Part shown: piece after piece, positions 34,345-62,540 of the stretch
Position numbering within the stretch: the stretch's first letter is position 1
How the letters are laid out: each line of letters begins with the position of its first letter
Origin: an uncultured Marinomonas sp.
GTDB taxonomy: Bacteria > Pseudomonadota > Gammaproteobacteria > Pseudomonadales > Marinomonadaceae
Direction of reading: 5' to 3'
Length of the DNA: 64,000 bases
NCBI GenBank assembly: GCA_947493575.1
Contig: CANLRQ010000007.1
Span: 40,208 to 104,207, forward strand
The notes under the pieces: generated by a model
Told to the model about the DNA's origin: nothing
Seen by the model: only the letters and a program-made list of their open reading frames with translations
Database searches by the model: none
Made by a program: the position numbers and the translations under genes

Positions 34345-34352
34345 CAAGAAGA

Positions 34353-35474: not shown

Positions 35475-35477
35475 AAT

Positions 35478-46626: not shown

Positions 46627-46651
46627 CTCTGTTCAATGACTTTCTATCTAG

Positions 46652-46829
46652 GGAAGTTGCGAATACATCCTCTTGCTTCAGTATGTGGATAAAAGCCGGC
46701 TATTCGAGGCGAGTATCGAATGTGAATAGCTGGCCTATTGTCTAGATGCTCAACAAAGAATGCTCAGCAAAGAAAGACAAGCTTTTAGACCATGCCCTGT
46801 GAGGCTTAGTAGACTTATTCGCATCTTCC
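46652..46829. mobile_element. IS5-type MITE (family B), internally deleted and inverted relative to 43108
   Basis: GGAAGTTGCGAATAC...CTTATTCGCATCTTCC ends; flanks CTAG/CTAA. Confidence 0.8.
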
Positions 46830-48077: not shown

Positions 48078-48095
48078 TGAAGGTTTATTTAAAAA

Positions 48096-48231
48096 TTCAT
48101 TAACCCATTTTTCAGCTGTTAATGGATTATCTAAAAAAATTATTCGCAAGAAACGAACGCCTACTATAAGAAAGTTAATACAAAAAAGCCAAGCCCGTAT
48201 TTTTAATAGGAAGCTTGGCTTAGGTTTGTCT
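48096..48231 (+). repeat. Direct repeat bounding the RM cassette (copy 1), containing a terminator hairpin
   Basis: Near-identical to 61770-61920; includes AAAAAAGCCAAGC...GCTTGGCTT. Confidence 0.92.
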
Positions 48232-48237
48232 ATAAAT

Positions 48238-51200
48238 TCAGACCGCTCTATTCTTCTTAAAATTCTCAGCCTGCGTAAAAATTTCTTTGTATACTTCATC
48301 ACGGCTTACTGGTGGGTAGCCAAACCTAGCGAGTAGCATGATCAAATCAACTTTTAACTCGGCTTTAATATCGTCACGGTTATTCCAGTCGGTATATTTG
48401 GCTTTATCATCGACCACTTCTTTCACCGCTTGTGATAGCTCAATCAGTTTATCGTCTGGGTAGGTAAAGTCATACTTAACAGCTAACGATTTAAGAATGT
48501 CGTAAAAAGCTTTTTCCTCAAAGCTAATACCTAAGTCATCGTTAGAGTCCATCTCAGTTTTAAGATCGGTAAACATATTGATAATCTCGTCAGAGAAGTC
48601 TTCTAATACTTCGCTCACCAATACATCTTCTTCTTTTCGCTCATTGTACTTTTCAACTAAAGCCTTAAAGCGTTTAGTGAAATCGACTCCCTGAGCAAGA
48701 TTAACCTTCTTCATTTCATCAATGGCTTTAGCGAGCATTTTTTGCAGTAACATTATCTTGGTATTGGGCAGCTTTATCTTGTCAATTTTGGCCAAATAAT
48801 CTTCATCAAAAATATCAATTTCGCCATCATCATTACCAAGTTTGAATATTTCTTCTACTCCATCACTGTTAAGTGCTTCTGCAATCATTTCTCGCACTTT
48901 TACGTTCATTTGTGTCGTATCGGGTGCATCACCTTTAGTTAGTTTGTAGATAATAGATCGCACAGCAAGGTAAAAATGAATAAAATCACGCTCGTTTTGC
49001 GATAGCTTTTCACTACCACAACATACGTCATAAGCCGCTTTTAAACGCTTAACTAACGCCATAAAGCGCTTCTCAAGTTTGCCGACAGAAAGCACAAATT
49101 CAGCCGCATTATTTAAGCAATTTAACTGCGCCACTGGCTCACCCGTGAAATAAGGTGACGAGTCAAATTTATGGAAAATTCGATTAAGTAGGTCTAAGTG
49201 ATCTTTAACGGCAATAACCGACTGGTTGATATCCTCAAAATTAGTTTCTTCTGACTTCGAAAATTGCGCCAACGCTTTATTCATCGCCGTTTTAATACCG
49301 ATGTAATCAACCACTAAACCTTTATGCTTGCCTGCAAATTTGCGGTTAACACGAGAGATGGTTTGAATAAGATTATGTTTTTGCAGTGGTTTATCAATAT
49401 AAATGGTATCAAGAAAGGGGACATCAAAACCGGTCAGCCACATATCAACGACAATGGCGATCTTAAAATTAGACTTATCATTTTTAAACTGTCGGTCTAA
49501 CTCTTTACGGTACTCTTTTGTACCCAGTAAATTGTATAAGGCCTCAGGATCATCTTTGCCACGTGTCATTACCATTTTGACACGCTCCATTGGTTTGGCT
49601 AACTTTTCTGCGCTGATGTCTCCCTTACGCTCTTGTTCTGTATACTGAGTAGCGTCTTCAGCTTCTTTAATTTCGAACCATTCAGGGCGTAACTCTTCAA
49701 GTTCCTGATAAAATAGGTAAGCAATCTCACGTGAACTACTGACAAACATGGCTTTACCTTTTATGGTCGAACCTTCATTGACGCGTGCTTCGTAGTGTTC
49801 AACAAAATCTTTAGCAAGAGTACGGATACGATCAGGATCGCCCAAAATCGAGTTCATACTCGAAGTCGCTTTTTTGCTTTCTTCTATTTGATGTTCATTC
49901 GTACCCGCTTCTTCACACTGCTTATAATAGGCTTCTATCTCTTCTAACTTGGCATTATTGAGTAATACTTTTGCCGCACGCCCTTCATAAACAATACGAA
50001 CTGTTATTTCATCTTTAACCGACTCTGACATGGTATAAGCATCAATAACCTTACCAAATACGTCTAACGTGGCATCAATAGGCGTACCAGTAAAACCAAC
50101 GAAAGTCGCGTTAGGTAATGAGTCATGCAAGTACTTAGCAAAGCCATATGTGCGCCTCACTCCAGCATTAGGGCCTGTTTCACTGATTGAAATTTTTTGG
50201 TCTAAATTTACTTGGCTCCGATGCGCTTCATCTGAAATACAAATAACATTAGTACGCCTAGTCAACAGCTCAATGTCTTCGGTAAACTTATGAATAGTGG
50301 TTAAAAATACCCCTCCACTTTGCCTACCTTTAAGCAACTCTCTTAATTTGTCACGACTTTCAACATTCAAAATATGATCATCACCAATATAGCTTTTAGC
50401 GTTAGAAAACTGCTTGGATAACTGATCATCTAAATCCGTTCTATCGGTAATTAATACGATGGTCGGGCTTTCAAACTCAACACTTTTCATTAATAAGCGG
50501 GACAAAAACTGCATGGTAAAGCTTTTACCGCAACCCGTTGCACCAAAGTAAGTGCCGCCTTTACCACTACCGCCAGCAACACTTCCATCAAGCGAAATTA
50601 ACTTTCGCTCTTTTTTAATATTTTCATAGAGCTTTCTAGAAGCATAATACTGCGGATAACGACACACTATTTTTACTTCGTCTTTAGATTTATCAGGAAA
50701 GTAAATAAAGTTGCGAATCACATCACATAAACGCGCTTTATCAAACAGCCCTTGCAACATAGTATGTAGGCCATTAATTCCGTCTTGCTCAATTGATTCA
50801 TCGCCTGTCACTTTGCGCCATGCATAGTAAAAATCATAGGGTGCAAAAACATTACCCATTTTGTTATTTACCCCATCACTGATAATACACAGGGCATTGA
50901 AAACAAAAAGTTGCGGAATATCGCGGCGATAGCGAATAGTTAATTGTTCATAGGCATGATGTAATGAAGCTTGCTCTTCCCGAATCGCGCTCTTAAATTC
51001 AAACACCACTACAGGTAAACCGTTGATGTACAAAATACCATCGGGAATACGTTTTGAATTATCAGCAGATGGGCTATCAATCTCTAACTGATTAACGATT
51101 TTAAAAATATTATGTGGTGCATTGCCTTTCTTTAGATCAGTAAATTGATACACAGCAGCAGGCTCAGCCGCCATAGTTAAAGGCTGTTCGGCTGGCAAAG

Positions 51201-51573
51201 TGAGCCCTTTATCTTCCGCTACTTCGTCATAATCAATCAGCTGAATGTATAAATCCTTTTTCGACGCTTCACCCGGCTTACTGCCAGATTCTCGTTTTAA
51301 TAAAAAACCATCACTTAACCATTTACAGAAGGTTTTATTACTTTCATATAAGTCACCTACAGGCAAGGTTTCGAGCTGTAGGATAATGCTGTCAATTTCA
51401 CCTGTGGTGATTTCATCAGCAGCATAGCGATTAGCTAAATAGGTTCGCAAGTCATCTTTAATGAGCACTTGTTCTGGCGAACGAATTAGCTCGACTCCTG
51501 AGGTGTAGGGAAAGCCTTGCTCACCAAGTAACTCGATAATGGCTGCTTCTAATTGTGCTTCTGTAAATTTCAT
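48238..51573 (-). CDS. hsdR: Type I restriction enzyme R subunit
   Basis: PDGILYINGLPVVVFEFK nuclease motif, GATGCGKS, DEAH, FTGTP, VDMWLTGFDVP, QTISRVNR; start ATG 51573. Confidence 0.96.
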   Translation of the reverse strand: MKFTEAQLEAAIIELLGEQGFPYTSGVELIRSPEQVLIKDDLRTYLANRYAADEITTGEIDSIILQLETLPVGDLYESNKTFCKWLSDGFLLKRESGSKPGEASKKDLYIQLIDYDEVAEDKGLTLPAEQPLTMAAEPAAVYQFTDLKKGNAPHNIFKIVNQLEIDSPSADNSKRIPDGILYINGLPVVVFEFKSAIREEQASLHHAYEQLTIRYRRDIPQLFVFNALCIISDGVNNKMGNVFAPYDFYYAWRKVTGDESIEQDGINGLHTMLQGLFDKARLCDVIRNFIYFPDKSKDEVKIVCRYPQYYASRKLYENIKKERKLISLDGSVAGGSGKGGTYFGATGCGKSFTMQFLSRLLMKSVEFESPTIVLITDRTDLDDQLSKQFSNAKSYIGDDHILNVESRDKLRELLKGRQSGGVFLTTIHKFTEDIELLTRRTNVICISDEAHRSQVNLDQKISISETGPNAGVRRTYGFAKYLHDSLPNATFVGFTGTPIDATLDVFGKVIDAYTMSESVKDEITVRIVYEGRAAKVLLNNAKLEEIEAYYKQCEEAGTNEHQIEESKKATSSMNSILGDPDRIRTLAKDFVEHYEARVNEGSTIKGKAMFVSSSREIAYLFYQELEELRPEWFEIKEAEDATQYTEQERKGDISAEKLAKPMERVKMVMTRGKDDPEALYNLLGTKEYRKELDRQFKNDKSNFKIAIVVDMWLTGFDVPFLDTIYIDKPLQKHNLIQTISRVNRKFAGKHKGLVVDYIGIKTAMNKALAQFSKSEETNFEDINQSVIAVKDHLDLLNRIFHKFDSSPYFTGEPVAQLNCLNNAAEFVLSVGKLEKRFMALVKRLKAAYDVCCGSEKLSQNERDFIHFYLAVRSIIYKLTKGDAPDTTQMNVKVREMIAEALNSDGVEEIFKLGNDDGEIDIFDEDYLAKIDKIKLPNTKIMLLQKMLAKAIDEMKKVNLAQGVDFTKRFKALVEKYNERKEEDVLVSEVLEDFSDEIINMFTDLKTEMDSNDDLGISFEEKAFYDILKSLAVKYDFTYPDDKLIELSQAVKEVVDDKAKYTDWNNRDDIKAELKVDLIMLLARFGYPPVSRDEVYKEIFTQAENFKKNRAV

Positions 51574-51824
51574 TATTTTATAACCTTCCAATGGCCTGTT
51601 TTAGCAGAGCCTACACATTCAATATAATTATGATCTTGAAGCACTTTAAGATGCCGTTCAATGGTGCGCAATGACTTATTTAAATGCATAACCAACGCCT
51701 GTATTGTTATATTGAGCGTTTGTTGTAATCGCAATAACAACTGCTGTTGTAACTTAGAGAGTTTTACCCCTTCATTTTGGTTAGCAGCACTTGTGACGAC
51801 TGCATCAAGGATCACCTGTAACAT
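51573..51824 (-). pseudogene. C-terminal relic of a Fic-type protein with a winged-HTH tail
   Basis: IEFMLQVILDAV (frame open upstream of the Met), then an HTH ending GSAKTGHWKV; no Fic catalytic motif left. Confidence 0.55.
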
Positions 51825-51845
51825 AAACTCAATGCGTGGAACGAA

Positions 51846-53279
51846 TTAAAAGCACACTGAAAAATGTGTTTTTAGTAGCTTCATCATATTACGCTTTGCC
51901 TTATGTTGTTTGATGATTTGGCTGATCATAAGCTGTAGTTCGTCACAATGATTACCTTGCAGATTTTTTTCTAGCGTGAGCAATAAATCGGTTGCCTGTT
52001 GATAGGCTTGGTTGTTGCCATGATCAACCGTGGATAACACGACTCGACAATAAAGGTCGATGGCTTCTTGTGGCTGTTCCGCCACAATTAAATCGGCTAA
52101 TGTAAGCAGCTTACTCGACTCGGCTTTATGTGATTTTACCCATAAACGGGCTTTATCCAATTGCTGATGATATAGGTAAAAACTTAGTAACGAATCCGTA
52201 TCTCTAAATCGCTTCCCATAACCATTTTCAATTTGATTATCTTGAAAGATTTGCTCAACTTTAGTTTGATACTGTTCATCAATCACCCCCGTTTTTTGCT
52301 CCAGAGCAATTAATGATTTATAACCTGCAAAGTTCGGGCTTTGAGTAAATAGTTGCCACGCCAACTGCCACGCTTGGGTATATTCTTTTAAGGCAAGGCG
52401 CAACTCCACTTCAAATTTTTGGCAGCTAATTTTTGCTCGGCCGTTTTCGGCTGCGCCATAGGCTTTTTTTAACCAGTGTTCAGCTTCTAATGGGTCGTTA
52501 TTAACACATAATTTCGCAATTTCAAGGAAGTTTCTTTCATCGTAAGCGGACATTGCCATCAAACGGCATTGCTCTTGCCAATCATTATTTTGTTGCGCCT
52601 CTTTAATCAGAGGTTTAATTAAACGCTCGAAGGCGTACCTTGTCTTCCACTCACTTAAATCCATGCCTTGTTGCTGGCGTTTTTGAACTTCAATTTGGCA
52701 CAAAGCAACAAAATTATTATGCACTTGTTGTGTTAAGTTAAAGTCTTCTGGTACAGACGGAAAAACATCGTATTTGTATTCTTTATAATGCTCAAATATC
52801 CACTGGGCTTTTTCATCATCTGACCAAGCTTGCTGGTTAAATAAGTGACTTAACCGTTGATTTAATTCACCCTCTATATATAAACGATCACCGCCAGAGT
52901 CATCTACTTGCTCCAACACGGTATTTAGCCGAACAAGTGCATACAAGTTAAGTTGCCACTGTTTATCAATGGGTAACCTATCTATCGCAGTAAAAATATC
53001 AACAAACATATTATCACTGTGATTAAAGTAAGCACTGGCCTCGGCATAGCCCCAAACCTGCTTTTTCGGCAAGGCTTTGGTGATCATTTTTTTTATCTCA
53101 CCAAAACTTAACCCACCTTGATCGTTTAACATGGCAAGCTGCCAACGGCTTTGCTCCTCGGCAGACTCGCCAATATAATTAAGGATAATCTCACTCAGCT
53201 CATCAACCGATTTTTGTGTAAACCAGCTTTGTAGCTGTTTCATGATAGGGTGTTCTTCGTCGTCATAGGTTTTCATCAT
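51846..53279 (-). CDS. Hypothetical alpha-helical/TPR-like protein resembling SWIM-associated proteins, no SWIM motif visible
   Basis: 477-aa open frame, helical repeats, C-terminal HKAKRNMMKLL. Confidence 0.6.
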   Translation of the reverse strand: MMKTYDDEEHPIMKQLQSWFTQKSVDELSEIILNYIGESAEEQSRWQLAMLNDQGGLSFGEIKKMITKALPKKQVWGYAEASAYFNHSDNMFVDIFTAIDRLPIDKQWQLNLYALVRLNTVLEQVDDSGGDRLYIEGELNQRLSHLFNQQAWSDDEKAQWIFEHYKEYKYDVFPSVPEDFNLTQQVHNNFVALCQIEVQKRQQQGMDLSEWKTRYAFERLIKPLIKEAQQNNDWQEQCRLMAMSAYDERNFLEIAKLCVNNDPLEAEHWLKKAYGAAENGRAKISCQKFEVELRLALKEYTQAWQLAWQLFTQSPNFAGYKSLIALEQKTGVIDEQYQTKVEQIFQDNQIENGYGKRFRDTDSLLSFYLYHQQLDKARLWVKSHKAESSKLLTLADLIVAEQPQEAIDLYCRVVLSTVDHGNNQAYQQATDLLLTLEKNLQGNHCDELQLMISQIIKQHKAKRNMMKLLKTHFSVCF

Positions 53280-53281
53280 AG

Positions 53282-53416
53282 TTATGCTTCTGTCGCGGCT
53301 GTGATTTTAGTGTTGTTGTCAACGGGCAGGGTTAATTCACCTGTGATATAGGAATAGCCTTGCTCAGCCAGCAATTCGATAATGGCTACTTCTAATTGTG
53401 CTTCGGTAAACTTCAT
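53282..53416 (-). pseudogene. hsdR 5' stub (44-codon mini-ORF)
   Basis: MKFTEAQLEVAIIELLAEQGYSYITG matches the hsdR N-terminus at 20/26 aa, then diverges. Confidence 0.85.
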
Positions 53417-53417
53417 G

Positions 53418-54128
53418 CTACTTATTCCTTGCCAGCATATTCATAATTAGGCGAATAATGGTTTCTTTTTGTTCTGGGGCTGACTCAGCCACCAGCAACG
53501 TTAACGCAGCTAAACCCGTATCATTAATAATGGGTTAATGATTATCTCGGTATAAATGCCCATTACGGTAAAGAAAGTCGACAAATAAAAACGCCCCACT
53601 ACGTTTATTACCATCAGCAAAAGGATGATTTTTCACCACGAGCGTGTAGCGACTGACAATTTCAGCTAAGCCTTGGCTTTCATTTTTAGCGATTTCAGGA
53701 TTATTCAAGGCTTTATTAATCAGTGTTAAGGCTTGCTCTAACTCGTTACTATTTTGCTCAAAGCGTTGTTGGTTAATCGCATAACCTTTTATTAAGTAGT
53801 CTTTTAAGCGCGCGGTGGCCCATTGTCTAAAGCGCACCCCTTGTTTCGATTTAACCCGATAACCAACTGAAATAATAACATCTAAATTGTAATGATCGAC
53901 TTGGTAAACTTTACCGTCTTCAGTAGTTGTTGCATATTTTGCAACAACTGAATCAGCTATCAATTCATCTTCTTTAAATATATTACGAATATGGCGAGAA
54001 ATAACAGACTTGTCTCGGCCAAATAATAACACCATCTGTGCCTGCGATAGCCAAACGGTATCTCCTTGCAAAGCAAGAGCAAGTTCTAATACGCCATCTT
54101 CATTTTTATAAATTTCAATTTGTTTCAT
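53418..54128 (-). pseudogene. RhuM-like plus Fic/Doc domain gene with a premature stop and an apparent internal deletion
   Basis: RhuM-like YNLDVIISVGYRVKS.QG..FRQWA; Fic HPFADGNKR; in-frame TAA at 53535-53537, then PIINDTGLAALTLLVAES...* in the same frame. Confidence 0.8.
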
Positions 54129-54130
54129 AG

Positions 54131-54193
54131 CTAACCTTGCTCACCAAATAACCCTATAATAGCTGCTTCTAATTGTGCTCCTGTGAATTTCAT
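54131..54193 (-). pseudogene. hsdR 5' stub (20-codon mini-ORF)
   Basis: MKFTGAQLEAAIIGLFGEQG*, 17/20 aa identical to the hsdR N-terminus. Confidence 0.85.
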
Positions 54194-54216
54194 ATCATTC
54201 TTTTGCCATACTGCAT

Positions 54217-54729
54217 TTAATTAACAAGTAACCCATAATTTCTTGCCATTCCTTCGTTAATAACGGCTATATCAGATCTAGAAATCCCCCATAATTTTGC
54301 CTGCCTAATAAACAACGAACGTAATTTTTCCGATAAAAGCGGTAAAACATGATTAGGTGCATCAGGTATAACTAACACGAGTTTAAAGCGAATAGTAGAC
54401 CAATCAAGCTGCAATAAAGGTTGGCTAAGCTCTTCGTTGACCTGAGCTAATTTCCCTAATTTTCCCATTGAGGTCGAAACCACTGAATTTTCCAATTTTT
54501 CAAATATTTCTAGAAAATAACCGTCAAACTTTTCTTTTGATTGTTGTGGATTAGGAACACTACTTTTGGCTTCTACAAACCAAAGCAACTGTTTTGCATT
54601 GTCGTGCCAGACAAATTCGCAACTTTTAATACCTTTACTCTTTAAAACAAATTCTGATTTTTCTATTTCAAACACATCACCATCTTGGAATTCTCCAAAG
54701 TTTAGGCCTGACTCTTCTATTTGAATCAC
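54217..54729 (-). CDS. Hypothetical protein, putative PD-(D/E)xK nuclease fold
   Basis: KSCEF...WFVEAKSS pattern (acidic residue followed by ExK); 2 bp from the ATPase gene. Confidence 0.55.
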   Translation of the reverse strand: MIQIEESGLNFGEFQDGDVFEIEKSEFVLKSKGIKSCEFVWHDNAKQLLWFVEAKSSVPNPQQSKEKFDGYFLEIFEKLENSVVSTSMGKLGKLAQVNEELSQPLLQLDWSTIRFKLVLVIPDAPNHVLPLLSEKLRSLFIRQAKLWGISRSDIAVINEGMARNYGLLVN

Positions 54730-54731
54730 GG

Positions 54732-55745
54732 TTAAACTCCCTGAAATTCTTGCTCAAACAAACGCACTGACTCATTAATAATCTCATTATCAGGTAAACC
54801 CTCATTACGTAATGATGAAACGCTCCATACACCCTCATTATCGGGACTGAAACAATTTACGTCTGTTGATTGCTTGGCAATAATTGCTAATTTTTTGATT
54901 ACATAATAAGAATGTGTAGCGATAAAAAATTGAATACCTTTGTCAGCTAGCGCTTGAACAATATCAAGGAGCTGAACTATAGCTGTTGGATGAAGTGCTG
55001 ATTCCGGTTCATCGATAAAAACAACAGAATCAGGAGTTAAAAAACGATTGCCGAGTAAAATATCAAGAATGGCAATTTTCTTAATACCTTCGGCAGTATT
55101 ATGTATTGAAAATTTTGCCTTGCCTTTACGGTATAGCCACTTTGCATTTGTTTGGTCATATTCTATACGCCCCTGAAACATATCTTCCAAGCTCTTTCTT
55201 GAATCTGAAAATGCTCTATAGTTCCGACCACTTTGTGTTGGGTTTTGTAATGCTACTACTAAATCAGCATACGTTGCATCATAGCCAAATACGCGATCTT
55301 GTACTGCACTTTTTAGAATAACTTGGCTTAATGACAAAACTTCTTTTGGAGGTAAAAATATCGAATTAGCCAACCTAGGGGATAAGTTATTATGTAAAGG
55401 GGTTACTTTCTTATGTGTACTGTGTCCGAATTCAAAAGCCAAGCTTGTGTTGTCACATGTTGTAAATGATGTTTTTAATTTATTATCTTTACCATTACGA
55501 ACTAAATCACTTAATTTTTCAGTTTGAAATGTCCAATAGAGTTTATCACTCAATACTTCTGAGAAATCTCGGTTATCGTCACCACGACCAAACTCTTCTT
55601 GTGAACGTATAATGCTGTATAACAGTTTCAACAAAAACGTCTTACCACTACTGTTCTGCCCTATAATGAGGTTGATGGGACTTAAGCTATTTACAATCAC
55701 CTCTTTAATTGGACCGCAATTTTGAATACTAAACTCTTTAATCAC
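54732..55745 (-). CDS. ABC/SMC-like ATPase (AAA_15/AAA_21 type)
   Basis: Walker A GQNSSGKT, signature-like AEGIKK, Walker B/D-loop FIDEPESALHP, H-loop ATHS. Confidence 0.88.
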   Translation of the reverse strand: MIKEFSIQNCGPIKEVIVNSLSPINLIIGQNSSGKTFLLKLLYSIIRSQEEFGRGDDNRDFSEVLSDKLYWTFQTEKLSDLVRNGKDNKLKTSFTTCDNTSLAFEFGHSTHKKVTPLHNNLSPRLANSIFLPPKEVLSLSQVILKSAVQDRVFGYDATYADLVVALQNPTQSGRNYRAFSDSRKSLEDMFQGRIEYDQTNAKWLYRKGKAKFSIHNTAEGIKKIAILDILLGNRFLTPDSVVFIDEPESALHPTAIVQLLDIVQALADKGIQFFIATHSYYVIKKLAIIAKQSTDVNCFSPDNEGVWSVSSLRNEGLPDNEIINESVRLFEQEFQGV

Positions 55746-55804
55746 TTAGTTTCCCCCCTGCAAAGTATGTGCTAATGGTAATTGATTTAATAAGTAGAAA
55801 AAAC

Positions 55805-57220
55805 TCATTGTGCAGCGTCCTTGTTTATCGTCAACTCGCCTGAGATGAGTTTTGGTAGTAATGTATCCCTGAGTTTTTCCAATGATTTTATACTATTGTT
55901 GTTACTCAATAGTTTGGCTGAAAAAGTATTTAACGTTTTATTGAATTCTAATAAAACAGTTTCATCAGGTAAAAGGAACTGAATACTCCTAAGAGCTTTT
56001 AGAGAAATATATTTTTGGGTCGTTCCAGCAAGCAATGAATCAATATGGTTTTGCATACTTTGACTTTTTAAAAGCTGATAAAAATAATGCTTTAGCGTTT
56101 CCTTTTCTGAGGTTCTTAGAAGCCCAATATTCTTAATAGCGAAATCTACATTCTGTTGTATAACTAGATATGGAACACCTACAGTACCAATCATGGTGAT
56201 TAATATATCACCGCTTTCAACCCTACTCCTAGCATTAACCTTTTTGTAGTCTTCTTCACTAATTAAGTAAGCATCTTCAATTTTCAAACTACCATCAGTG
56301 ATATGCTTTGAGGTTATTAATGGGTAGCCTAAATCACTTTTTTTAGGCGAGTCATGTGTGCCATCTCTTACATCAATTTCTTTACCACTAATTGCTAACT
56401 TCCAACCAATAGGTATCCAGCCGTTGATGCCGATTGATGGTTCATCGGTTTGTTCAAATTCGCTTGGGAAGAGTTGACGAATGTCTTTGGGCAGTGGTTT
56501 GGTTCCATGCTCTCCATTAGCAATTTGTTGTTGCACTTGTTGGCGTTGCTGTTGTCTAAAAAGTGCTTTTTTCTGCAAGGCTTCTGGGAAGTCGTTAACC
56601 GCCATACCGCTAGCAAGTGCGTTGTCAAAAACAGGATCAAAATCAACAAACCAGCTTTTAAATAACGCTTGCGCCATTTGCTCTAGGGTTTGGTTGGTTT
56701 GGGTGTTGTGTTTAATTTTTTGGTCTAAAACATAAAGTGTATTTCCAATAGATTTTTGATGCTTAAAGGAGGGAAAATTAAATTTTAGAGAAAGAATATC
56801 ACCAACTTTTATACTAGGTTGAGCAGCCCCTCGATTTAAATTAGTTAAGCTAACTCTATTGCCTCTCAAAAGGTAATAGAGAAATAAATTATCAAATCCC
56901 TCTTTAGTTCTTAGACCTATTGTATTTTGTATAATTATACATTGCTCTTCAGGGCTAATCGCTACCTTTCCATAACCGTTACCTACTAACGTAAGTAATA
57001 CATCTTTAGGTTGGTTATATTTACGAATAAATGTTTCGTAAAGATCTGGGCTTATATATCTTTTAACTTCACTTAATTTTGGTTCGCCTTCGCTTATTAT
57101 TAAATAGTTATCAATTACAGGTATTCCTGTATCAGAGTAACTACTAGGATTTCTTCCCCTATTATCGATCACCAAATCTACAATTTCTGAAAGAGTAAAT
57201 TCTTGCCATTTATTCACCAT
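55805..57220 (-). CDS. hsdS: Type I RM specificity subunit
   Basis: Two TRDs, conserved KIKHNTQTNQTLEQMAQALFKSWFVDFDPV and LRDTLLPKLISGEL. Confidence 0.95.
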   Translation of the reverse strand: MVNKWQEFTLSEIVDLVIDNRGRNPSSYSDTGIPVIDNYLIISEGEPKLSEVKRYISPDLYETFIRKYNQPKDVLLTLVGNGYGKVAISPEEQCIIIQNTIGLRTKEGFDNLFLYYLLRGNRVSLTNLNRGAAQPSIKVGDILSLKFNFPSFKHQKSIGNTLYVLDQKIKHNTQTNQTLEQMAQALFKSWFVDFDPVFDNALASGMAVNDFPEALQKKALFRQQQRQQVQQQIANGEHGTKPLPKDIRQLFPSEFEQTDEPSIGINGWIPIGWKLAISGKEIDVRDGTHDSPKKSDLGYPLITSKHITDGSLKIEDAYLISEEDYKKVNARSRVESGDILITMIGTVGVPYLVIQQNVDFAIKNIGLLRTSEKETLKHYFYQLLKSQSMQNHIDSLLAGTTQKYISLKALRSIQFLLPDETVLLEFNKTLNTFSAKLLSNNNSIKSLEKLRDTLLPKLISGELTINKDAAQ

Positions 57221-57281
57221 AACCTAACTCCTCCAAGTTTTGGCAAATCGCTTTATCTAACTTCTCGGCCTGCTCCATTTG
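57210..57281 (-). pseudogene. hsdM 3' stub overlapping the hsdS start
   Basis: QMEQAEKLDKAICQNLEELGYGE* versus the true hsdM end QMEQAEELDKAIRQNLEVLGYGN* (19/23 aa). Confidence 0.88.
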
Positions 57282-57321
57282 CCACTGCTGTTGATTTGAG
57301 CAAGGGGTTTTGTTGCATGTG

Positions 57322-58383
57322 CTATTCATATTCACCGTCCTGTGCTTGTTGCTGTTGTTCGAGCTGCTGTTGTACACGCTCTCGCTCTTTTTCTAGCTCA
57401 ATACGCAGTTCTTCTTCGCTGGGTAAATAGGGTAAGTATTTGGCGGCAAACAGCTGCTTTTGCTCGCTCAGTACAGAGTATTTTACGACCGCTTCACTTT
57501 TTTCACTGCACAGTACTAAACCTATGGTTGGGTTATCGTTTGGTTCTTTCATTTGCTCGTTGTATAGTCGAATATAGGTATCCATTTGCCCTACATCTTG
57601 ATGCTTTAATTTGCCAACTTTTAAATCGACCAGTAAAAAACATTTAAGCTTGAAGTTGTAAAAAACCAAATCAATGTAAAAGTCTTCATCGTCAAAACGT
57701 ATTCGCTGTTGACGCTCAACAAACGCAAAGCCTTTACCTAGCTCTAATAAAAATTGCTGTAAATTATTGATAATACCTTGTTCAAGGTCGGACTCTTGAT
57801 AGCTTTTGTCCTGTAAATTTAAAAAGTCGAGTATGTAAGGATCGCGCAAGTAATCTTTGTTGGTCTCTGCTAATGCTTGCGTTTTTTCTGTGGCTTCTTG
57901 TTCTACGGGCAGCTTCTCTTTACTTGCTAATAAGCGTTCGTAATAGAGGTTGCCTTTCTGCCGTTCGAGTGCTCTGACACTCCAGTTTTGTTGTAGCGCC
58001 TCTTGTTGATACCAATGCCGGGCGTTTTTATTTTCTATGCGGGCTAACACATTGTAATGTGACCAACTTAATTCGAGAGACACTGTCTCCTGTTTTTCAA
58101 ACGCCTGATAAAAACGGCGCATATTACGCAAGTTAGAAATATCAAAACCTTTACCAAAGTCTGCTGTTAGCTGTTTTGAAAGTTGCTGTAACTGTGCCTT
58201 GCCATATTCGGCTCTACTTTTACCTTGCTGCTCGTCTTCTACAATTAAGCGGCCAATATGCCAATAGGCTTGCACCATGGCACTATTAACGGTTTGTTTA
58301 ACTTGGCTGCGCGCGTTAGCAATAATCTGTGTTATTTCTGCTATTAATTGCTTTTGATTATTCGCCGATACTTTACTTGCCAT
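57322..58383 (-). CDS. YhcG/DUF1016-family PD-(D/E)xK nuclease-domain protein
   Basis: AYWHIGRLIVE, LSWSHY, RDPYILDFL, FLLELGKGFAFV.RQ, IDLVFY...VDLKVG; start MASKV at 58383. Confidence 0.92.
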   Translation of the reverse strand: MASKVSANNQKQLIAEITQIIANARSQVKQTVNSAMVQAYWHIGRLIVEDEQQGKSRAEYGKAQLQQLSKQLTADFGKGFDISNLRNMRRFYQAFEKQETVSLELSWSHYNVLARIENKNARHWYQQEALQQNWSVRALERQKGNLYYERLLASKEKLPVEQEATEKTQALAETNKDYLRDPYILDFLNLQDKSYQESDLEQGIINNLQQFLLELGKGFAFVERQQRIRFDDEDFYIDLVFYNFKLKCFLLVDLKVGKLKHQDVGQMDTYIRLYNEQMKEPNDNPTIGLVLCSEKSEAVVKYSVLSEQKQLFAAKYLPYLPSEEELRIELEKERERVQQQLEQQQQAQDGEYE

Positions 58384-59848
58384 GATCCAATACCTCCCAA
58401 TGGCCAGTTTTGGCTGAGCCATGACGCTTGATATAGTTATGTTTTTTTAACCACTTTATATTATTTTCTATGGCAGTTTTGCTGATGCTGATTATGTGTG
58501 CCAACTCTGTGGCGGAAATAGTGTTATTTTTCATGATTGCTATCATAATTTTTTTACGGTTATCGCCCAACCTATCACCCAACCCATCACCCAACCTATC
58601 ACCCAACCTATCACCCAACTTATCAATTGCCTTGGTAGATGTTTTGTTATCTAACGGTTTTTTTTGTGACTTGTTCTTGTTAACGACTTGGGTATTTATT
58701 CTAGGAAATTCCCAATCAATAAAGTCCCCAGTTTCTGTTAATGTTGGCAAAGCAACATCGGTATCTTGGCAATATTGCTTAATACGCGCTATGCCACTGC
58801 CCCATTGTTCAACAAGGTTAAGCTGTTTAAATACTCGGGCAATCACTGTGTTACGAATTTCTGAGCGGCCTTTAAGCACGTCACTCATTGTTAAACCGTT
58901 AGGTAAGCCACCTGGGGAAACAATGTTTAAAATATCATCGTAAACGCCTATTTTTATATCACGACCAACATTACTGTAATCTCGGTGCATAACGGCATTT
59001 AATAGGGCTTCGCGAATTGCGGGAATGGGGATTTCATAGGTGTCGGTTCGTTGTAAGCCTAACACCTCTGCATGTAAATGAAGGTGATTTTTGATAAAAG
59101 CTTCGGCTTGTTCTAATTGGCTAAAAATATCATTGCTATATTCTTTTTTATCTATAAATACAGCCATGGTATTACCTTTAAAACGACTGCACTTAATTTC
59201 TACATGCTCATAATGCCCCAATAAAATAAGCAAACCTATTGTGGGATACAGCTTATTAGCTGAATTTGAGCGGTCGTATTTTATCAGCTTGAGGTTTAAT
59301 AATTGCTGCTGATCAAGTGATTTATTTAATTGGTTAAACCTTGAGGTTAGGGGCGTTAAGTCAAGTTGGTCTAACTCTACCTCGTAGTCTATTTGTTCAT
59401 CAAAACTTATATTGCGCCTTTGTAACTCAAGTTCGGCTATTTTTTCTTGTCCAGCTACACGGTTGGTTGCGGCTAAACGAATATAACAAGCGGGAGCTTT
59501 GCCTTGTTGTTTTAGGTAATAGGGTAGCGATGGACCTCGAAAGACTTCAATCACTAAAAGCTCTACATTGTTAATATTTTCAATATAGATTTCGGGTAAT
59601 AATGTTGGCGCGCAGTAATCATAAATAATGGATGACACCCGATCTTTTAATTCAAAAATATCAACGTCACCCAAGCCAATTAAGCCGCGTTGGTCGTCAA
59701 CACCTATTATTAATTTACCACCCGCCGTGTTAGCAAAAGCGACTAAGGTTTTAGCTAATGCATCACCTTTAGGAAGTTGCTGCTTAAACTCTAGTACTTT
59801 AGATTCACCCTGCTGTATTTCAATATATAAAGGGTGCTTAATTTCCAT
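58373..59848 (-). CDS. Schlafen/AlbA_2 domain plus HATPase_c_4 plus wHTH protein (RM-associated ATP-binding protein)
   Basis: GESKVLEFK...VAFANTAGGKLIIGVDD; REALLNAVMHRDY; SPGGLP; RNTVIARVF; EQWGSGI. Confidence 0.88.
   Translation of the reverse strand: MEIKHPLYIEIQQGESKVLEFKQQLPKGDALAKTLVAFANTAGGKLIIGVDDQRGLIGLGDVDIFELKDRVSSIIYDYCAPTLLPEIYIENINNVELLVIEVFRGPSLPYYLKQQGKAPACYIRLAATNRVAGQEKIAELELQRRNISFDEQIDYEVELDQLDLTPLTSRFNQLNKSLDQQQLLNLKLIKYDRSNSANKLYPTIGLLILLGHYEHVEIKCSRFKGNTMAVFIDKKEYSNDIFSQLEQAEAFIKNHLHLHAEVLGLQRTDTYEIPIPAIREALLNAVMHRDYSNVGRDIKIGVYDDILNIVSPGGLPNGLTMSDVLKGRSEIRNTVIARVFKQLNLVEQWGSGIARIKQYCQDTDVALPTLTETGDFIDWEFPRINTQVVNKNKSQKKPLDNKTSTKAIDKLGDRLGDRLGDGLGDRLGDNRKKIMIAIMKNNTISATELAHIISISKTAIENNIKWLKKHNYIKRHGSAKTGHWEVLDHGK
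58561..58620. repeat. In-frame 12-bp VNTR (5 copies, encoding LGDR-like units)
   Basis: TATCACCCAACC x5 with single variants. Confidence 0.9.
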
Positions 59849-61508
59849 AACCCAGCACCTCCAAATTTTGACGAATCGCTTTGTCTAGCTCTTCTGCCTG
59901 TTCCATTTGGCTATATAAGGTTTGGCTTAGCTCTTTCATTTTAACTTCAAATGGGACGCCATCGTCTTCAATTTCGGCAGCACCCACGTAACGACCCGGT
60001 GTTAATACGTAATCGTTGGCTTTGATGGACGTTCTCGGCTTCCTGCCTTCCACGTCACTAGTACTTCCCTGTACGTCGTCATCAAGTGGCACACTGGCAC
60101 AAAAGCCTGCGATATCCTGATAATCGCCATCGAGTTTTTTCCATTCATGGTAGGTACGAGCGATTTCAGCGATATCATCTGTGGTTAATTCTTTATTGGT
60201 ACGGCTGATCATTGAGCCCATTTCACGAGCATCAATAAATAAGGTTTCACCTTGGCGGTTGCGGGTCGCTCCTGTGCGTCCTGCACCCGCGACATTAGTG
60301 TTTCCTTGCACGTCATAGCCTGCGGTGCCTTTCTTGTTTTTGGTGATAAACCATAAACACACTGGAATTTGTGTGGTGTAGAAAAGCTGCCCCGGTAAGG
60401 CGATCATACAATCCACTAGGTCTTGCTCGATGATTTTTTGGCGAATGGCACCTTCACCGCTGGTATTTGAGCTCATTGAGCCATTGGCTAGTACAAAACC
60501 CGCGGTGCCGTTTTCACTGAGTTTTGAGATCATGTGCATGATCCACGCGTAGTTGGCATTGCCTGTTGGTGGTACATCAAAGCCCGCCCAACGGCCATCG
60601 TCGACTAATTCACTATCAGAGCGCCATTGTTTTTGGTTGAATGGTGGATTTGCCATGATAAAGTCAGCTTTTAAATCTGGGTGTTGGTCTTTAAAAAAGC
60701 TGTCTCCGGCCACTTCACCTAAATTACCTGAAATACCGCGAACTGCTAGGTTCATTTTGGCTAGCTTGTAGGTGGTGTTGGTGTATTCCTGACCGTAAAT
60801 TGAAATGTCTTTGCGGTTGCCTTTGTGGCTGTCGATAAACTTTAACGACTGCACAAACATACCACCTGAGCCACAACAGGGATCGTAAATTTTACCTTTA
60901 TAAGGCTCTATCATTTCAGCAATGAGTGCTACCACTGATTTTGGCGTATAGAACTCTCCCCCGCCTTTACCTTCGCTTGAGGCAAACTTACCTAAGAAAT
61001 ATTCGTAAACTCGACCAACTAAATCTTCCTCGGTCATTTCACATTCGCTAGCCGCAGTGTCGATGTTGTTAATCGTATCGATAAGTGAGGCAAGCTTGCT
61101 GGTAACAAGCCCTAAACGGCTAAAATAGTTTTCTGGTAATGCACCTTTTAATGACGGGTTGTTCTTTTCAACCGTGTGCAATGCGGTATCAATTTTTACC
61201 GCAATGTCGTCTTGCTTCATGTTCTTTTTTATAAAGGTCCAACGAGCCTCTTCTGGCAGATAGAACACGTTGTCCTGCATGTAAAACTCAACTTGGTCAA
61301 TAAAGTCACCCATGCCACCGTCAATCAAGGCTTGGCGTTTGTCTTCAAACTTATCACTGATAAATTTTAAGAAAATAAGACTTAATACCACATGCTTGTA
61401 TTCAGACGATTCAACACTACCACGTAGCTTATTCGCGGTATCCCATAAGGTTTCTTCAAAATTGGTGTTATTGGAAGCGCTACTTTTTTTGCTTTTAGCG
61501 GTTGTCAT
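59838..61508 (-). CDS. hsdM: Type I RM methyltransferase subunit (m6A)
   Basis: GEFYTP, DPCCGSGG, ANPPFN, LTPGRYVG; start MTTAKS at 61508. Confidence 0.96.
   Translation of the reverse strand: MTTAKSKKSSASNNTNFEETLWDTANKLRGSVESSEYKHVVLSLIFLKFISDKFEDKRQALIDGGMGDFIDQVEFYMQDNVFYLPEEARWTFIKKNMKQDDIAVKIDTALHTVEKNNPSLKGALPENYFSRLGLVTSKLASLIDTINNIDTAASECEMTEEDLVGRVYEYFLGKFASSEGKGGGEFYTPKSVVALIAEMIEPYKGKIYDPCCGSGGMFVQSLKFIDSHKGNRKDISIYGQEYTNTTYKLAKMNLAVRGISGNLGEVAGDSFFKDQHPDLKADFIMANPPFNQKQWRSDSELVDDGRWAGFDVPPTGNANYAWIMHMISKLSENGTAGFVLANGSMSSNTSGEGAIRQKIIEQDLVDCMIALPGQLFYTTQIPVCLWFITKNKKGTAGYDVQGNTNVAGAGRTGATRNRQGETLFIDAREMGSMISRTNKELTTDDIAEIARTYHEWKKLDGDYQDIAGFCASVPLDDDVQGSTSDVEGRKPRTSIKANDYVLTPGRYVGAAEIEDDGVPFEVKMKELSQTLYSQMEQAEELDKAIRQNLEVLGYGN
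60027..60077 (-). repeat. 51-bp in-frame repeat insertion in hsdM (DVQGSTSDVEGRKPRTS)
   Basis: Related to 60264-60314 (18/24 nt identical at the 5' end, same length). Confidence 0.7.
60264..60314 (-). repeat. 51-bp in-frame repeat insertion in hsdM (DVQGNTNVAGAGRTGAT)
   Basis: Interrupts the FITKNK...R.GETLFIDAR region; related to 60027-60077. Confidence 0.7.
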
Positions 61509-61546
61509 GTGCTTTCGTCCTTTAAAAATTTTCACTTTTATACTTA

Positions 61547-61686
61547 AAGGCCTGTGCACGAAGTTATGAGCGATGATAAGACGAGGCAAAAACAGACGAA
61601 AAAGCGGAGTTTATAAATTATAAATACACATTTTGAGTCTATTTTTAACAAAGTATTAGCAAGCGTAATAGTCGTGCAAAGGTCTC
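61547..61686. mobile_element. MITE family A, 140 bp, 5-bp TSD ACTTA, in the hsdM upstream region
   Basis: AAGGCCTGTGCACG...CGTGCAAAGGTCTC; ACTTA on both flanks. Confidence 0.85.
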
Positions 61687-61769
61687 ACTTAAATTTTTTA
61701 TCAATGGCTCGATGTAACGATACGTCCCACTTCAGGCATACTTTCAAGCAGCGCTACTTTATCAAAAAC

Positions 61770-61920
61770 TTCATTAACCCATTTTTCAGCTGCTAATGGA
61801 TTATCTAGAAAAAATTATTCGCAAGAAACGAACGCCTACTATAAGAAAGTTACTATAAAAAAGTTACTATAAAAAAGCCAAGCTCGTATTTTTAATAGGA
61901 AGCTTGGCTTAATGTTGTCT
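61770..61920 (+). repeat. Direct repeat bounding the RM cassette (copy 2), includes the likely dcd terminator
   Basis: Matches 48096-48231, with an extra ~14-bp tandem duplication (AAGTTACTATAAAA). Confidence 0.92.
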
Positions 61921-61946: not shown

Positions 61947-62540
61947 TTAACGCAGTTTTTCATCATTACTAATACGACTACCGACAGCAGAACTCTGGTC
62001 ACGGTACTTGGCGTTGTCCCGTTTATTATAAGGGCGGTCGGCTGGGCCAGACATGGTTTCGAAGTTAATCGCGCCAATGGTCATTCCGGGACGCACGGCA
62101 AGGGGAAGTTTACCGCCGTTTAAAAATTCTAACACGATGCCACCACTCCAACCGGGATCAATTCTGTGTGCGGTAACGTGTACCATTAACCCCAATCTCG
62201 CCAGTGAAGAACGGCCATCTAACCAGCCTACTAAATGTTCTGGTAAGGTAATGGATTCTTTCGTGACTCCTAGCACCAATTCACCGGGATGGATAAAGAA
62301 AGGCTCGCCATCTGGTAAGATAATTTCATCTCCCATTACCGATTCTATGGTTTTGTTTAACGCTTCTTTAGGGCCACTAAGATCCAGATAAGGTGCGGGG
62401 TGCCCTTGAAAAACTCGAAATGAATTCCCCAAGGTTAGATCAACAGACACACCACTGATGGCCGCATTTTCAGGTCTTGGCTCAATGGATATTACGCCTT
62501 CATCTAGGGCGGCTATGATATCTCGGTCACACAAACGCAT
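61947..62540 (-). CDS. dcd: dCTP deaminase
   Basis: [31 protein letters not shown]...LE. Confidence 0.96.

What the first reader, a model, noticed from the sequence alone, without database searches (positions are those of the whole stretch)
48096..61920. Whole 13.5-kb type I RM cassette bracketed by long direct repeats of the dcd terminator region
Seen: 48096-48231 and 61770-61920 are near-identical and in the same orientation. One follows hsdR and the other follows dcd, so hsdR uses a copy of the dcd terminator. No recombinase lies inside. Established: some RM loci are known to be flanked by long target duplications. Inference: the cassette integrated by a Campbell-type or long-duplication event, can loop out by RecA, and is retained by post-segregational killing.
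Basis: partly seen in the sequence, partly recalled or inferred. Interest (0 to 1): 0.7.

Follow-up and report, generated by a model that had tools for sequence, protein, structure and literature searches.

The report
Restriction cassette flanked by duplicated terminator
A horizontally acquired type I restriction-modification and phage-defence gene cluster in a Marinomonas chromosome sits between two copies of about 150 bp of the sequence that normally follows the dcd gene; this is a further example of a known way restriction genes insert, not a new mechanism.

Summary
Window 48084-48231 and 61758-61920 are direct repeats, about 95% identical apart from a 14-nt and a 1-nt indel, and they bracket a 13.5-kb type I RM cassette with no recombinase. 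Each copy carries a hairpin plus U6 terminator on the minus strand, 6 nt after hsdR and 26 nt after dcd. The repeat is not multicopy: there are two copies in the window, none in 90 related loci or in JGI metagenome contigs, and it has single-copy depth in a run that holds a 98.6%-identical relative. The cassette is foreign: HsdR is 89-91% identical to Alteromonadales proteins but only 73% to the best Marinomonas hit, and DNA homology stops at the hsdR stop codon. No clean empty site was found; the closest genome is only 80% identical in DNA. The repeat holds part of a parE toxin pseudogene that continues past the edge of the right copy only. That argues against a simple staggered-cut target duplication and favours homology-driven (Campbell-like) integration or a multi-step history. 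Six differences show the duplication is not fresh. Retention by post-segregational killing is unlikely, because type I systems examined do not show it. Verdict: a new member of a known kind (RM units flanked by long direct repeats), of modest interest.

The parts
48084..48231 (.). Left copy of the direct repeat (strict core 48096-48222), between the MFS stop codon (48075-48077) and the hsdR stop codon (48238-48240).
61758..61920 (.). Right copy of the direct repeat (strict core 61770-61911), 26 nt downstream of the dcd stop codon. It contains an extra 14-nt tandem unit at 61846-61873.
48186..48221 (-). Hairpin followed by U6: an intrinsic-terminator-like structure that now ends hsdR and faces the convergent MFS gene.
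   Evidence: -17.5 kcal/mol, z -3.5. The simple terminator scan missed it because its loop is longer than 8 nt.
61875..61910 (-). The same hairpin followed by U6, serving as the dcd terminator.
   Evidence: (missed by the simple scan)
61704..61814 (-). Fragment of a parE toxin pseudogene, corresponding to residues about 22-53 of 75-87-aa ParE-family proteins. Its first 15-19 codons lie inside the right repeat copy and the rest lies outside it.
48096..48140 (-). Truncated copy of the same parE fragment in the left repeat copy (LDNPLTAEKWVNE). Beyond it the sequence is the 3' flank of the MFS gene.
61520..61690 (.). MITE-like multicopy element with terminal inverted repeats, lying between the hsdM start and the parE fragment. 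It is not part of the duplication.
   Evidence: (depth above 1000 in run X1)
59838..61508 (-). hsdM, the type I methyltransferase. The start codon is probably the ATG at 61508.
58373..59848 (-). Embedded gene encoding a protein with Schlafen/AlbA_2, HATPase_c_4 and wHTH domains.
57322..58422 (-). Embedded YhcG/DUF1016 PD-(D/E)xK nuclease (PADLOC candidate PDC-S02).
55805..57220 (-). hsdS, the specificity subunit, with two target-recognition domains.
54217..55745 (-). Embedded two-gene system HEC-02: the ABC-type ATPase HEC-02A (54732-55745) and HEC-02B (54217-54729).
   Evidence: bioRxiv 10.1101/2024.01.29.577857
53417..54128 (-). rhuM/fic gene with an internal deletion: 197 aa are readable, against 324-326 aa in relatives.
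51846..53279 (-). Embedded gene for a 477-aa protein (PADLOC candidate PDC-S62).
51573..51824 (-). Gene for an 83-aa HTH protein.
48238..51573 (-). hsdR, the type I restriction subunit.
61947..62540 (-). dcd (dCTP deaminase), a backbone gene whose 3' flank was duplicated.
46884..48077 (+). MFS transporter gene, convergent with hsdR. It belongs to the accessory region, because it is not next to dcd in any other Marinomonas examined.

Best explanation
The window is chromosomal DNA of an unsampled Marinomonas species. The 3' flank of dcd is a variable region across the genus. In this strain it has accumulated about 28 kb of accessory modules, the dcd-proximal one being a type I RM operon with embedded defence genes imported from an Alteromonadales-type lineage.

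The two repeats are a duplication of about 150 bp of native dcd-downstream sequence. This sequence consists of the dcd terminator hairpin, an A/T-rich spacer, and the first part of a decayed parE toxin gene. The right copy is the original, because it is continuous with the rest of the parE remnant. The left copy is derived: it is cut off inside parE and joined to the 3' flank of the MFS gene at an A-run microhomology.

The most likely route (inferred, not shown) has two steps. First, a DNA fragment carrying the RM cassette together with dcd-flank sequence (MITE, parE remnant, terminator) circularised. Second, it recombined by homology, Campbell-style, with the resident copy of that flank. An alternative version is that the flank was duplicated at insertion and the left copy was later trimmed. 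Either way the imported hsdR, which arrived with essentially no 3' non-coding DNA, now ends at a working-looking copy of the dcd terminator. This terminator also separates hsdR from the convergent MFS gene.

The repeats could support rare RecA-dependent deletion or amplification of the cassette. Persistence is better explained by the defence benefit than by addiction.
For: Shown:
- The repeats are real and unique. They have no hit in 90 related loci totalling 1.65 Mb or in JGI metagenome contigs. In run X1 the dcd-linked copy has depth 4.2, like its flanks, whereas the neighbouring MITE has depth above 1000.
- Both copies carry a hairpin plus U6 terminator.
- The cassette is foreign. HsdR is 89-91% identical in protein to Catenovulum, Psychrobium, Thalassotalea and Pseudoalteromonas, against 73% for the best Marinomonas hit. 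DNA identity of 85-90% to those cassettes stops at about window 48243 (the hsdR stop codon is at 48238-48240) and at 61469 (the hsdM start is at 61508). The repeat is absent from those cassettes, and they lie in unrelated contexts.
- There is no recombinase in the cassette, nor among the window ORFs that were scanned.
- The parE remnant crosses the left edge of the right copy. A 37-aa fragment matches ParE-family proteins over query residues 3-34 (E = 2.3e-6 against 1.84 billion proteins). Three of the four hits scanned exceed the Pfam ParE cut-off. The left copy shares only the first ~15 residues.
- The dcd 3' flank is variable. In Marinomonas phaeophyticola dcd is followed by the homologue of window ORF 33204-33563. 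In other species a cobW-like gene follows dcd directly or after 1-5 extra genes.
- A 98.6%-identical relative in run X1 lacks most of the cassette. Coverage of the cassette is about 10% or less, against 50-90% of the backbone. It also lacks the MFS|repeat junction.
- The MFS|left-repeat junction has independent support from a metagenome contig in run X2 (215 nt, 1 mismatch).
Against: No genome or read set shows the predicted empty site (MFS, one repeat, dcd) or a circular or excised form. The donor that would have carried both the cassette and dcd-flank sequence is hypothetical. In X1 the MFS gene is followed by a MITE copy, not by the repeat, and the contigs are too short (about 4x depth) to link MFS to dcd, so the ancestral arrangement is unknown. 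X1 and X25 also hold a few 98-99%-identical pieces of 49.2-54.1 kb, so related cassette variants exist in that population and the history may be more complex. The six differences between the copies could reflect either age or hybrid origin; the data cannot tell which. The rest of the genome, outside the 64-kb window, could not be searched for further copies.
Confidence: 0.5

Rival explanations
1. Classical insertion with long target duplication (Nobusato 2000; Furuta 2010). A linear RM unit entered a site MFS-[150 bp]-dcd at staggered breaks about 150 bp apart, and gap filling duplicated the target on both sides.
For: RM genes flanked by unique direct repeats longer than 30 bp, with no mobility gene, is exactly the published signature. 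Published repeat lengths range from 46 to 423 bp, and the cases include a type I system interrupted by a regulator and an ATP-binding protein (PMC2853133). The foreign DNA ends within about 6 nt of the left copy. Inside the cassette, modules also sit next to 52-77-nt duplications of the hsdR 5' end.
Against: The insert would have to begin, at its hsdM end, with a MITE and about 55 nt that continue in frame the parE remnant located in the target. That would be an implausible coincidence. If the MITE and parE extension were target sequence instead, they should lie beside the left copy, not the right one. No empty site was found.
Confidence: 0.2
2. The two copies were not made by the insertion. 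One possibility is that a later local duplication or template switch copied the dcd terminator region to the end of hsdR, perhaps selected because hsdR and the convergent MFS gene lacked a terminator. The other is that the cassette landed by chance between two pre-existing copies.
For: The copies differ at 6 positions, so their age relative to the insertion is unknown. The left copy's outer junction is a microhomology-type joint. Furuta et al. list chance insertion between repeats as a class.
Against: The unit is locus-specific sequence (the dcd terminator plus one particular truncated parE) and exists only as these two copies. A separate 150-bp copy landing exactly at the 6-nt gap after an imported hsdR would be a second rare event.
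Confidence: 0.15
3. Site-specific integration by an integrase acting in trans, with the repeats as attL and attR. A homologous cassette in Psychrobium sits at a tRNA-Ser gene in this manner.
For: The Psychrobium cassette (L007 2878-13318) is flanked by direct repeats of the tRNA-Ser 3' end plus its terminator. There are 2.6 tandem units at 2261-2574 and a copy at 13510-13629. No integrase is found among the genes called within 10 kb on either side.
Against: Here the repeat contains no tRNA or gene 3' end. No integrase was found among the scanned ORFs of the window. The 5% divergence and indels spread along the unit do not define a core site.
Confidence: 0.1
4. Assembly artefact: the contig was wrongly joined at a repeated sequence.
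For: The P(L)|hsdR junction and the hsdM-MITE-parE-P(R) junction have no independent read support in public runs.
Against: The copies differ by SNPs and indels, so they would not collapse in assembly. The MFS|left-copy junction and the right-copy|dcd junction are each seen in independent runs (X2 and X1).
Confidence: 0.03

Closest known systems
RM gene complexes inserted with long target duplication (Nobusato et al. 2000; Furuta, Abe and Kobayashi 2010, PMC2853133). One example is Haemophilus influenzae 86-028NP, where type I hsdM/S/R genes interrupted by a regulator and an ATP-binding protein are flanked by 46-bp repeats.
   Same: An RM operon with embedded non-RM genes lies between unique direct repeats longer than 30 bp, with no integrase or transposase, and is of horizontal origin.
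   Different: No empty site is available here. The repeat, at about 150 bp, is longer than in the type I example. A pseudogene continues from the right copy into the supposed insert, which the simple model does not predict.
Campbell-type integration of circular DNA, and tRNA-linked genomic islands with att direct repeats.
   Same: Direct repeats flank the inserted DNA. One copy restores the 3' flank (terminator) of the upstream gene. The homologous Psychrobium cassette sits at tRNA-Ser with such repeats.
   Different: There is no integrase, no tRNA and no defined core site. The homology would have had to be carried by the incoming DNA itself.
Type I RM systems with embedded defence genes ('guilt by embedding', bioRxiv 10.1101/2024.01.29.577857; PrrC/Rlo-type insertions).
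   Same: HEC-02A/B, PDC-S02, PDC-S62 and rhuM-family genes are nested between hsdM, hsdS and hsdR.
   Different: That work concerns gene content, not how the operon or its inserts entered. The words duplication and recombination do not occur in its text.
Amplification or deletion of RM units through flanking long direct repeats (reference 84 cited in PMC2853133).
   Same: The architecture would allow RecA-dependent loop-out or tandem amplification.
   Different: Nothing was observed here. The copies are about 95% identical, with perfect identity blocks of at most 37 nt.

Membership tests
RM insertion with long target duplication (Furuta 2010 criteria) | RM genes flanked by direct repeats longer than 30 bp | tested here: met
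   Copies of 148 and 163 nt; the core is about 95% identical.
RM insertion with long target duplication (Furuta 2010 criteria) | The repeat is not a high-copy element or IS | tested here: met
   Two copies in the window; none in 90 loci or in JGI metagenome contigs; single-copy depth in run X1. The remainder of the source genome was not available.
RM insertion with long target duplication (Furuta 2010 criteria) | No linked integrase, transposase or prophage | tested here: met
   Pfam, PADLOC and NCBIfam searches on all cassette ORFs of at least 80 aa, and Pfam on the ORFs scanned elsewhere in the window.
RM insertion with long target duplication (Furuta 2010 criteria) | A related genome shows the empty site with a single copy of the repeat | tested here: inconclusive
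   The closest genome is 80% identical in DNA and is not syntenic after dcd. Relative X1 mostly lacks the cassette but shows MFS|MITE, with contigs too short to link across.
RM insertion with long target duplication (Furuta 2010 criteria) | The duplicated target is bounded by the insert on its inner sides, so no target sequence continues into the insert | tested here: not met
   The parE remnant continues about 18 codons beyond the left edge of the right copy.
Campbell-type or site-specific integrative island | An integrase, or a demonstrable circular form or excision junction | not testable with these tools
   No integrase was found. No raw reads of this strain exist in public runs.
Type I restriction-modification system | Intact hsdM, hsdS (two target-recognition domains) and hsdR genes in one locus | tested here: met
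   Full-length matches in Pfam and PADLOC. HsdR is 89-91% identical to annotated HsdR proteins. Enzyme activity was not tested.
Post-segregational-killing (addiction) RM module | Loss of the genes kills the cell line | not tested
   The literature states that the type I systems examined do not display post-segregational killing (PMC3874152).
MITE / REP-type multicopy repeat | Many dispersed copies and terminal inverted repeats | tested here: not met
   The 150-bp unit has only two copies. By contrast the adjacent element at 61520-61690 does meet the criterion.

The most novel reading that the evidence does not exclude
This family of hsdM-hsdS-hsdR defence cassettes may spread between orders of marine Gammaproteobacteria as recombinase-less units. 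Each insertion would duplicate 50-150 bp of local sequence. At the outer level this is the terminator region of the upstream host gene: the dcd terminator here, and the tRNA-Ser 3' end plus terminator in Psychrobium. At the inner level it is the first 52-77 nt of hsdR each time a new defence module is embedded. If so, one long-duplication insertion mechanism would build nested defence islands.
Probability: 0.15. Interest if true: 0.6.

Novelty: new member of a known kind. Interest (0 to 1): 0.3.

Why it matters
RM and defence islands that move without their own recombinase are poorly understood mechanistically. This locus adds a clean type I example in a marine bacterium. Its boundaries are tight: the foreign DNA ends within a few bases of the hsdR stop codon. 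The duplicated unit is locus-specific and supplies a terminator to the imported operon. A pseudogene acts as an internal marker showing which copy is ancestral. That marker separates simple target duplication from homology-driven integration, a distinction most published cases cannot make. The nested duplications of the hsdR 5' end hint at how embedded defence genes get inside type I operons. None of this changes the current picture. It is a useful, testable example rather than a discovery.

Tried and rejected
1. Exact-protein look-ups for the window's dcd and MFS proteins found nothing on record.
2. The closest MFS homologues (63-77% identical) lie in unrelated contexts, so the MFS side cannot supply an empty site.
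3. The genome-contig scan with dcd did not return the source genome. The closest species, Marinomonas phaeophyticola, is too distant for intergenic comparison.
4. Two metagenome scans with repeat cores gave 0 hits.
5. Searches of sequencing runs found no run holding this strain. The best was X1, with a 98.6%-identical relative at about 4x depth and only short contigs. The reported joint 48092->61638 rests on 22 nt of a multicopy MITE and is offset by about 19 nt from colinearity, so I do not accept it as an excision junction.
6. The word-indexed protein search with the 41-aa parE fragment returned nothing. The exhaustive HMMER search was needed instead.
7. GC content does not separate the cassette from the backbone.
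8. The simple terminator scan missed the hairpin because of its long loop. The promoter-like hits inside the repeat are not above the shuffle expectation, so they are only a lead.
9. Two more hsdR-homologue loci (Litorilituus, Thalassotalea) extend beyond the 10-kb flanks, so their boundaries could not be examined.
10. The multicopy-element explanation for the 150-bp unit was rejected.
Full report
OBSERVATION. Alignment and repeat finding give a strict core of 48096-48222 versus 61770-61911. Weaker similarity extends to 48084-48231 versus 61758-61920. In the core there are four substitutions, a 1-nt indel and a 14-nt tandem unit (AAAGTTACTATAAA, 61846-61873) present only in the right copy. The perfect identity blocks are 23, 14, 37, 13 and 27 nt long. 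Two core motifs each occur exactly twice in the 64-kb window, with none expected by chance. The left copy (L) lies between the stop codon of a plus-strand MFS gene (48077) and the stop codon of minus-strand hsdR (48238-48240). The right copy (R) ends 26 nt from the stop codon of minus-strand dcd. On the minus strand both copies fold into the same hairpin followed by UUUUUU, so hsdR does end at a copy of the dcd terminator.

WHAT LIES BETWEEN THE COPIES. All genes are on the minus strand. In order they are:
- hsdM (59838-61508);
- a Schlafen/AlbA_2-HATPase_c_4-wHTH gene (58373-59848);
- a YhcG/DUF1016 nuclease gene (57322-58422);
- hsdS (55805-57220);
- an ABC-type ATPase gene and a 170-aa partner gene (54217-55745);
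- a damaged rhuM/fic gene (53417-54128);
- a gene for a 477-aa protein (51846-53279);
- a gene for an 83-aa HTH protein (51573-51824);
- hsdR (48238-51573).

PADLOC names the embedded genes HEC-02A/B, PDC-S02, PDC-S62 and PDC-S23/S05. HEC-02 is an experimentally validated two-gene defence system, and type I RM operons often carry embedded genes (bioRxiv 10.1101/2024.01.29.577857). No integrase or transposase is found in the cassette, nor among the window ORFs that were scanned. The remainder of the window is ordinary chromosome, including lapB, recBCD, lodAB and higBA.

ORGANISM AND ORIGIN OF THE CASSETTE. Backbone proteins point to Marinomonas. The best named MFS hits are 63-70% identical and belong to Marinomonas species. 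The dcd protein is 95% identical to that of M. phaeophyticola. The source genome is not in the genome collection. In contrast, HsdR is 89-91% identical to proteins of Catenovulum, Psychrobium, Thalassotalea, Pseudoalteromonas and Litorilituus, and only 73% identical to the best Marinomonas protein. At the DNA level hsdR is 85% and hsdM 90% identical to the Psychrobium and Catenovulum loci. That homology stops at about window 48243, three bases inside hsdR, and at 61469, thirteen codons into hsdM. The 150-bp repeat is absent from those loci, which lie in unrelated genomic contexts. The cassette is therefore horizontally acquired, and the repeat is local sequence, not cargo.

THE REPEAT IS NOT A MULTICOPY ELEMENT.
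- The unit has no match in 90 fetched loci totalling 1.65 Mb, which include 27 Marinomonas dcd loci.
- Two core patterns have no exact match in JGI metagenome contigs.
- In run X1, which holds a relative whose backbone differs at about 1.4% of positions, the dcd-linked copy sits on a contig of depth 4.2, like its flanks. The element immediately beside it (window 61520-61690) reaches depths above 1000 with 213 contigs.
- That neighbouring element is a MITE-like repeat with terminal inverted repeats. It has further copies at 29237-29424, 33555-33865 and 44853-44922, and in other Marinomonas species.

WHAT THE REPEAT IS MADE OF. Read on the minus strand, the unit is the dcd terminator hairpin, an A/T-rich spacer with repeated TTATAGTA(A/G) motifs, and then an open frame LDNPL(A/T)AEKWVNE. 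In the right copy this frame continues beyond the repeat as VFDKVALLESMPEVGRIVTSSH*. An exhaustive HMMER search of the 37-aa fragment against 1.84 billion proteins found five hits, four of them 75-87-aa proteins. The best hit has E = 2.3e-6, is 62% identical, and aligns query residues 3-34 to protein residues 22-53. Three of those four small proteins exceed the Pfam ParE_toxin cut-off, and the fourth (20.5 bits) falls just below it. The fragment alone gives a sub-threshold ParE hit spanning profile positions 19-48. The edge of the repeat falls at residues 15-19 of this fragment, so the parE pseudogene runs across the left edge of the right copy. The left copy shares only the first ~15 residues and then becomes the 3' flank of MFS. 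The right copy is therefore the ancestral one, continuous with older local sequence. The left copy is a truncated derivative joined to the MFS flank at an A-run.

SEARCH FOR AN EMPTY SITE. None was found.
- The MFS gene is not next to dcd in any other Marinomonas examined.
- In M. phaeophyticola synteny (apbC-dcd, 80% DNA identity) stops at the dcd stop codon. The next gene there is the homologue of window ORF 33204-33563. About 28 kb of the window (33.6-61.9 kb) is therefore accessory relative to that species.
- Across 27 Marinomonas loci a cobW-like gene follows dcd directly in five. It follows after one to five extra genes in others and is replaced in the rest. The dcd 3' flank is thus a variable region genus-wide.
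- In run X1 the backbone on both sides is 50-90% covered at 96% identity or more, but the cassette is covered at about 10% or less. Nothing is covered from 54.2 to 60.2 kb at that threshold, and the 3' kilobase of hsdR is nearly absent even at 80%.
- The X1 contig from MFS matches the window to 48092 and then enters a MITE copy, not the repeat. The tool's joint 48092->61638 rests on 22 nt of that multicopy element and is about 19 nt out of register, so I do not read it as an excision junction.
- The X1 contig from dcd carries the right part of the repeat without the 14-nt unit and ends inside the repeat.
- No X1, X25 or X37 contig covers the parE part, even at 80%.
- A 215-nt metagenome contig in run X2 reproduces the MFS|left-copy junction with one mismatch.
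- A few 98-99%-identical pieces of 49.2-54.1 kb occur in X1 and X25, so related cassette variants circulate in that population.

In short, alleles without this insertion seem to exist, but the predicted MFS-one repeat-dcd allele is not demonstrated.

MECHANISM. A simple staggered-cut target duplication around an RM-only insert predicts that any target sequence continuing beyond the duplicated unit lies outside the left copy. Here the MITE and the parE continuation lie inside, next to the right copy. If they were part of the insert, their in-frame continuity with the parE piece in the target would be a coincidence. A Campbell-like event fits the order of parts. In that event a circularised fragment carrying [terminator-parE remnant-MITE-hsdM...hsdR] recombines within the about 150-bp homology with a resident MFS-[terminator-truncated parE]-dcd site. 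It also fits the truncated left copy and the scattered differences between copies. A duplication of a longer flank followed by microhomology-mediated trimming of the left copy fits equally well. I give this homology-driven or multi-step reading 0.5, classical long target duplication 0.2, an unrelated later duplication or pre-existing copies 0.15, integrase in trans 0.1, and misassembly 0.03.

The six differences between the copies (about 3% substitutions; the backbone differs from X1 by about 1.4%) show the event is not fresh. RecA-dependent loop-out remains possible through 23-37-nt identity blocks but is untested. Post-segregational killing is not a good explanation for retention. [quoted passage not shown] The benefit of defence is the simpler explanation.

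COMPARISON WITH KNOWN CASES. RM units flanked by long, unique direct repeats without mobility genes are an established class, with repeats of 46-423 bp and RM types I-IV. The class includes an H. influenzae type I operon interrupted by a regulator and an ATP-binding protein (PMC2853133). This locus meets three of that class's criteria. It fails one (target sequence continues into the insert), and the key criterion (an empty site) is left open. It is best filed as a new member of a known kind, with a useful internal marker of polarity.

A PARALLEL AND A LEAD. The homologous cassette in Psychrobium (L007 2878-13318) is flanked by direct repeats of the tRNA-Ser(tga) 3' end plus its terminator. 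There are 2.6 tandem units at 2261-2574 and a copy at 13510-13629, with an about 75-nt core at about 96% identity. No integrase is found among the genes called within 10 kb on either side. Inside the window's cassette the first 77 nt of hsdR occur three times (51497-51573, 53340-53416 and 54117-54193), each time downstream of an embedded module. The middle copy is preceded by the 3' end of rhuM/fic, exactly as at the true hsdR start in Psychrobium and Catenovulum. Catenovulum also has an extra 52-nt copy. These nested duplications suggest that embedded defence genes enter type I operons by the same kind of duplicative or homology-based insertion. This was only partly followed up.

Noticed in passing
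window 51497-51573, 53340-53416, 54117-54193; L006 8899-8950 and 10002-10053: The first 52-77 nt of hsdR (encoding MKFTEAQLEAAIIELL...) are present three times in the window. Each copy lies just downstream of an embedded defence module. The middle copy is preceded by the rhuM/fic 3' end, as at the real hsdR start in relatives. Catenovulum has one extra copy. This suggests nested insertions with duplication of the hsdR 5' end.
   Followed up: partly
window 61520-61690; also 29237-29424, 33555-33865, 44853-44922; a second family at 43237-43373, 46647-46800, 34290-34349; a third at 43108-43183, 44926-45001, 46800-46829: MITE-like intergenic repeats with terminal inverted repeats (about TGAGACCTTTGCACGA) sit at nearly every module boundary of the accessory region. 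They reach depth above 1000 in run X1 and occur in other Marinomonas species. One lies about 26 nt upstream of the hsdM start codon and may carry its promoter.
   Followed up: partly
window 33564-61946: About 28 kb between dcd and ORF 33204-33563 is accessory relative to Marinomonas phaeophyticola, where those two genes are adjacent. It contains an HTH gene, lodAB, a 715-aa plus 405-aa gene pair, higBA, LysE, an AraC/GyrI-like regulator, MFS, and the RM cassette. MITE copies in the same orientation lie at both ends.
   Followed up: partly
L007 2197-2574 and 13510-13629: The homologous RM cassette in Psychrobium sp. nBUS_13 is integrated next to tRNA-Ser(tga). It has 2.6 tandem 120-nt units of the tRNA 3' end plus terminator upstream and one copy downstream. 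No integrase is found within 10 kb.
   Followed up: partly
window 34353-37670: A lodA/lodB-like pair (L-lysine epsilon-oxidase plus a flavoprotein), the Marinomonas antimicrobial oxidase type.
   Followed up: no
window 44186-44760: An intact-looking higB/higA toxin-antitoxin pair, followed by a MITE copy.
   Followed up: no
window 39542-42906: Two overlapping large ORFs (715 aa and 405 aa) with no Pfam or NCBIfam match, in a low-GC stretch (about 36%). They could be an unknown accessory or defence pair.
   Followed up: no
window 58561-58625: Five in-frame 12-nt tandem units (TATCACCCAACC) inside the Schlafen/AlbA_2 ORF, just before its C-terminal wHTH domain. They form a repeated 4-aa linker.
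   Followed up: no
window 53417-54128: The rhuM/fic gene has lost about 90 internal codons compared with the 324-326-aa genes in Catenovulum and Psychrobium, and is probably a pseudogene.
   Followed up: partly
window 48163-48192 and 61852-61881 (minus strand): A sigma-70-like site (TTGGCT, 18 nt, TATAGT) overlaps the descending arm of the terminator in both copies. In the right copy it points towards parE, the MITE and hsdM. It may be the former parDE promoter. The number of such sites is not above the shuffle expectation.
   Followed up: no
runs X1 and X25, window 49275-49530, 50951-51214, 51783-52155, 53926-54123: Isolated contigs 98-99% identical to parts of hsdR, the PDC-S62 gene and rhuM occur in samples whose main relative lacks most of the cassette. 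One contig joins hsdR at 50609 to unrelated terminator-like DNA. The locus seems polymorphic in that population.
   Followed up: partly
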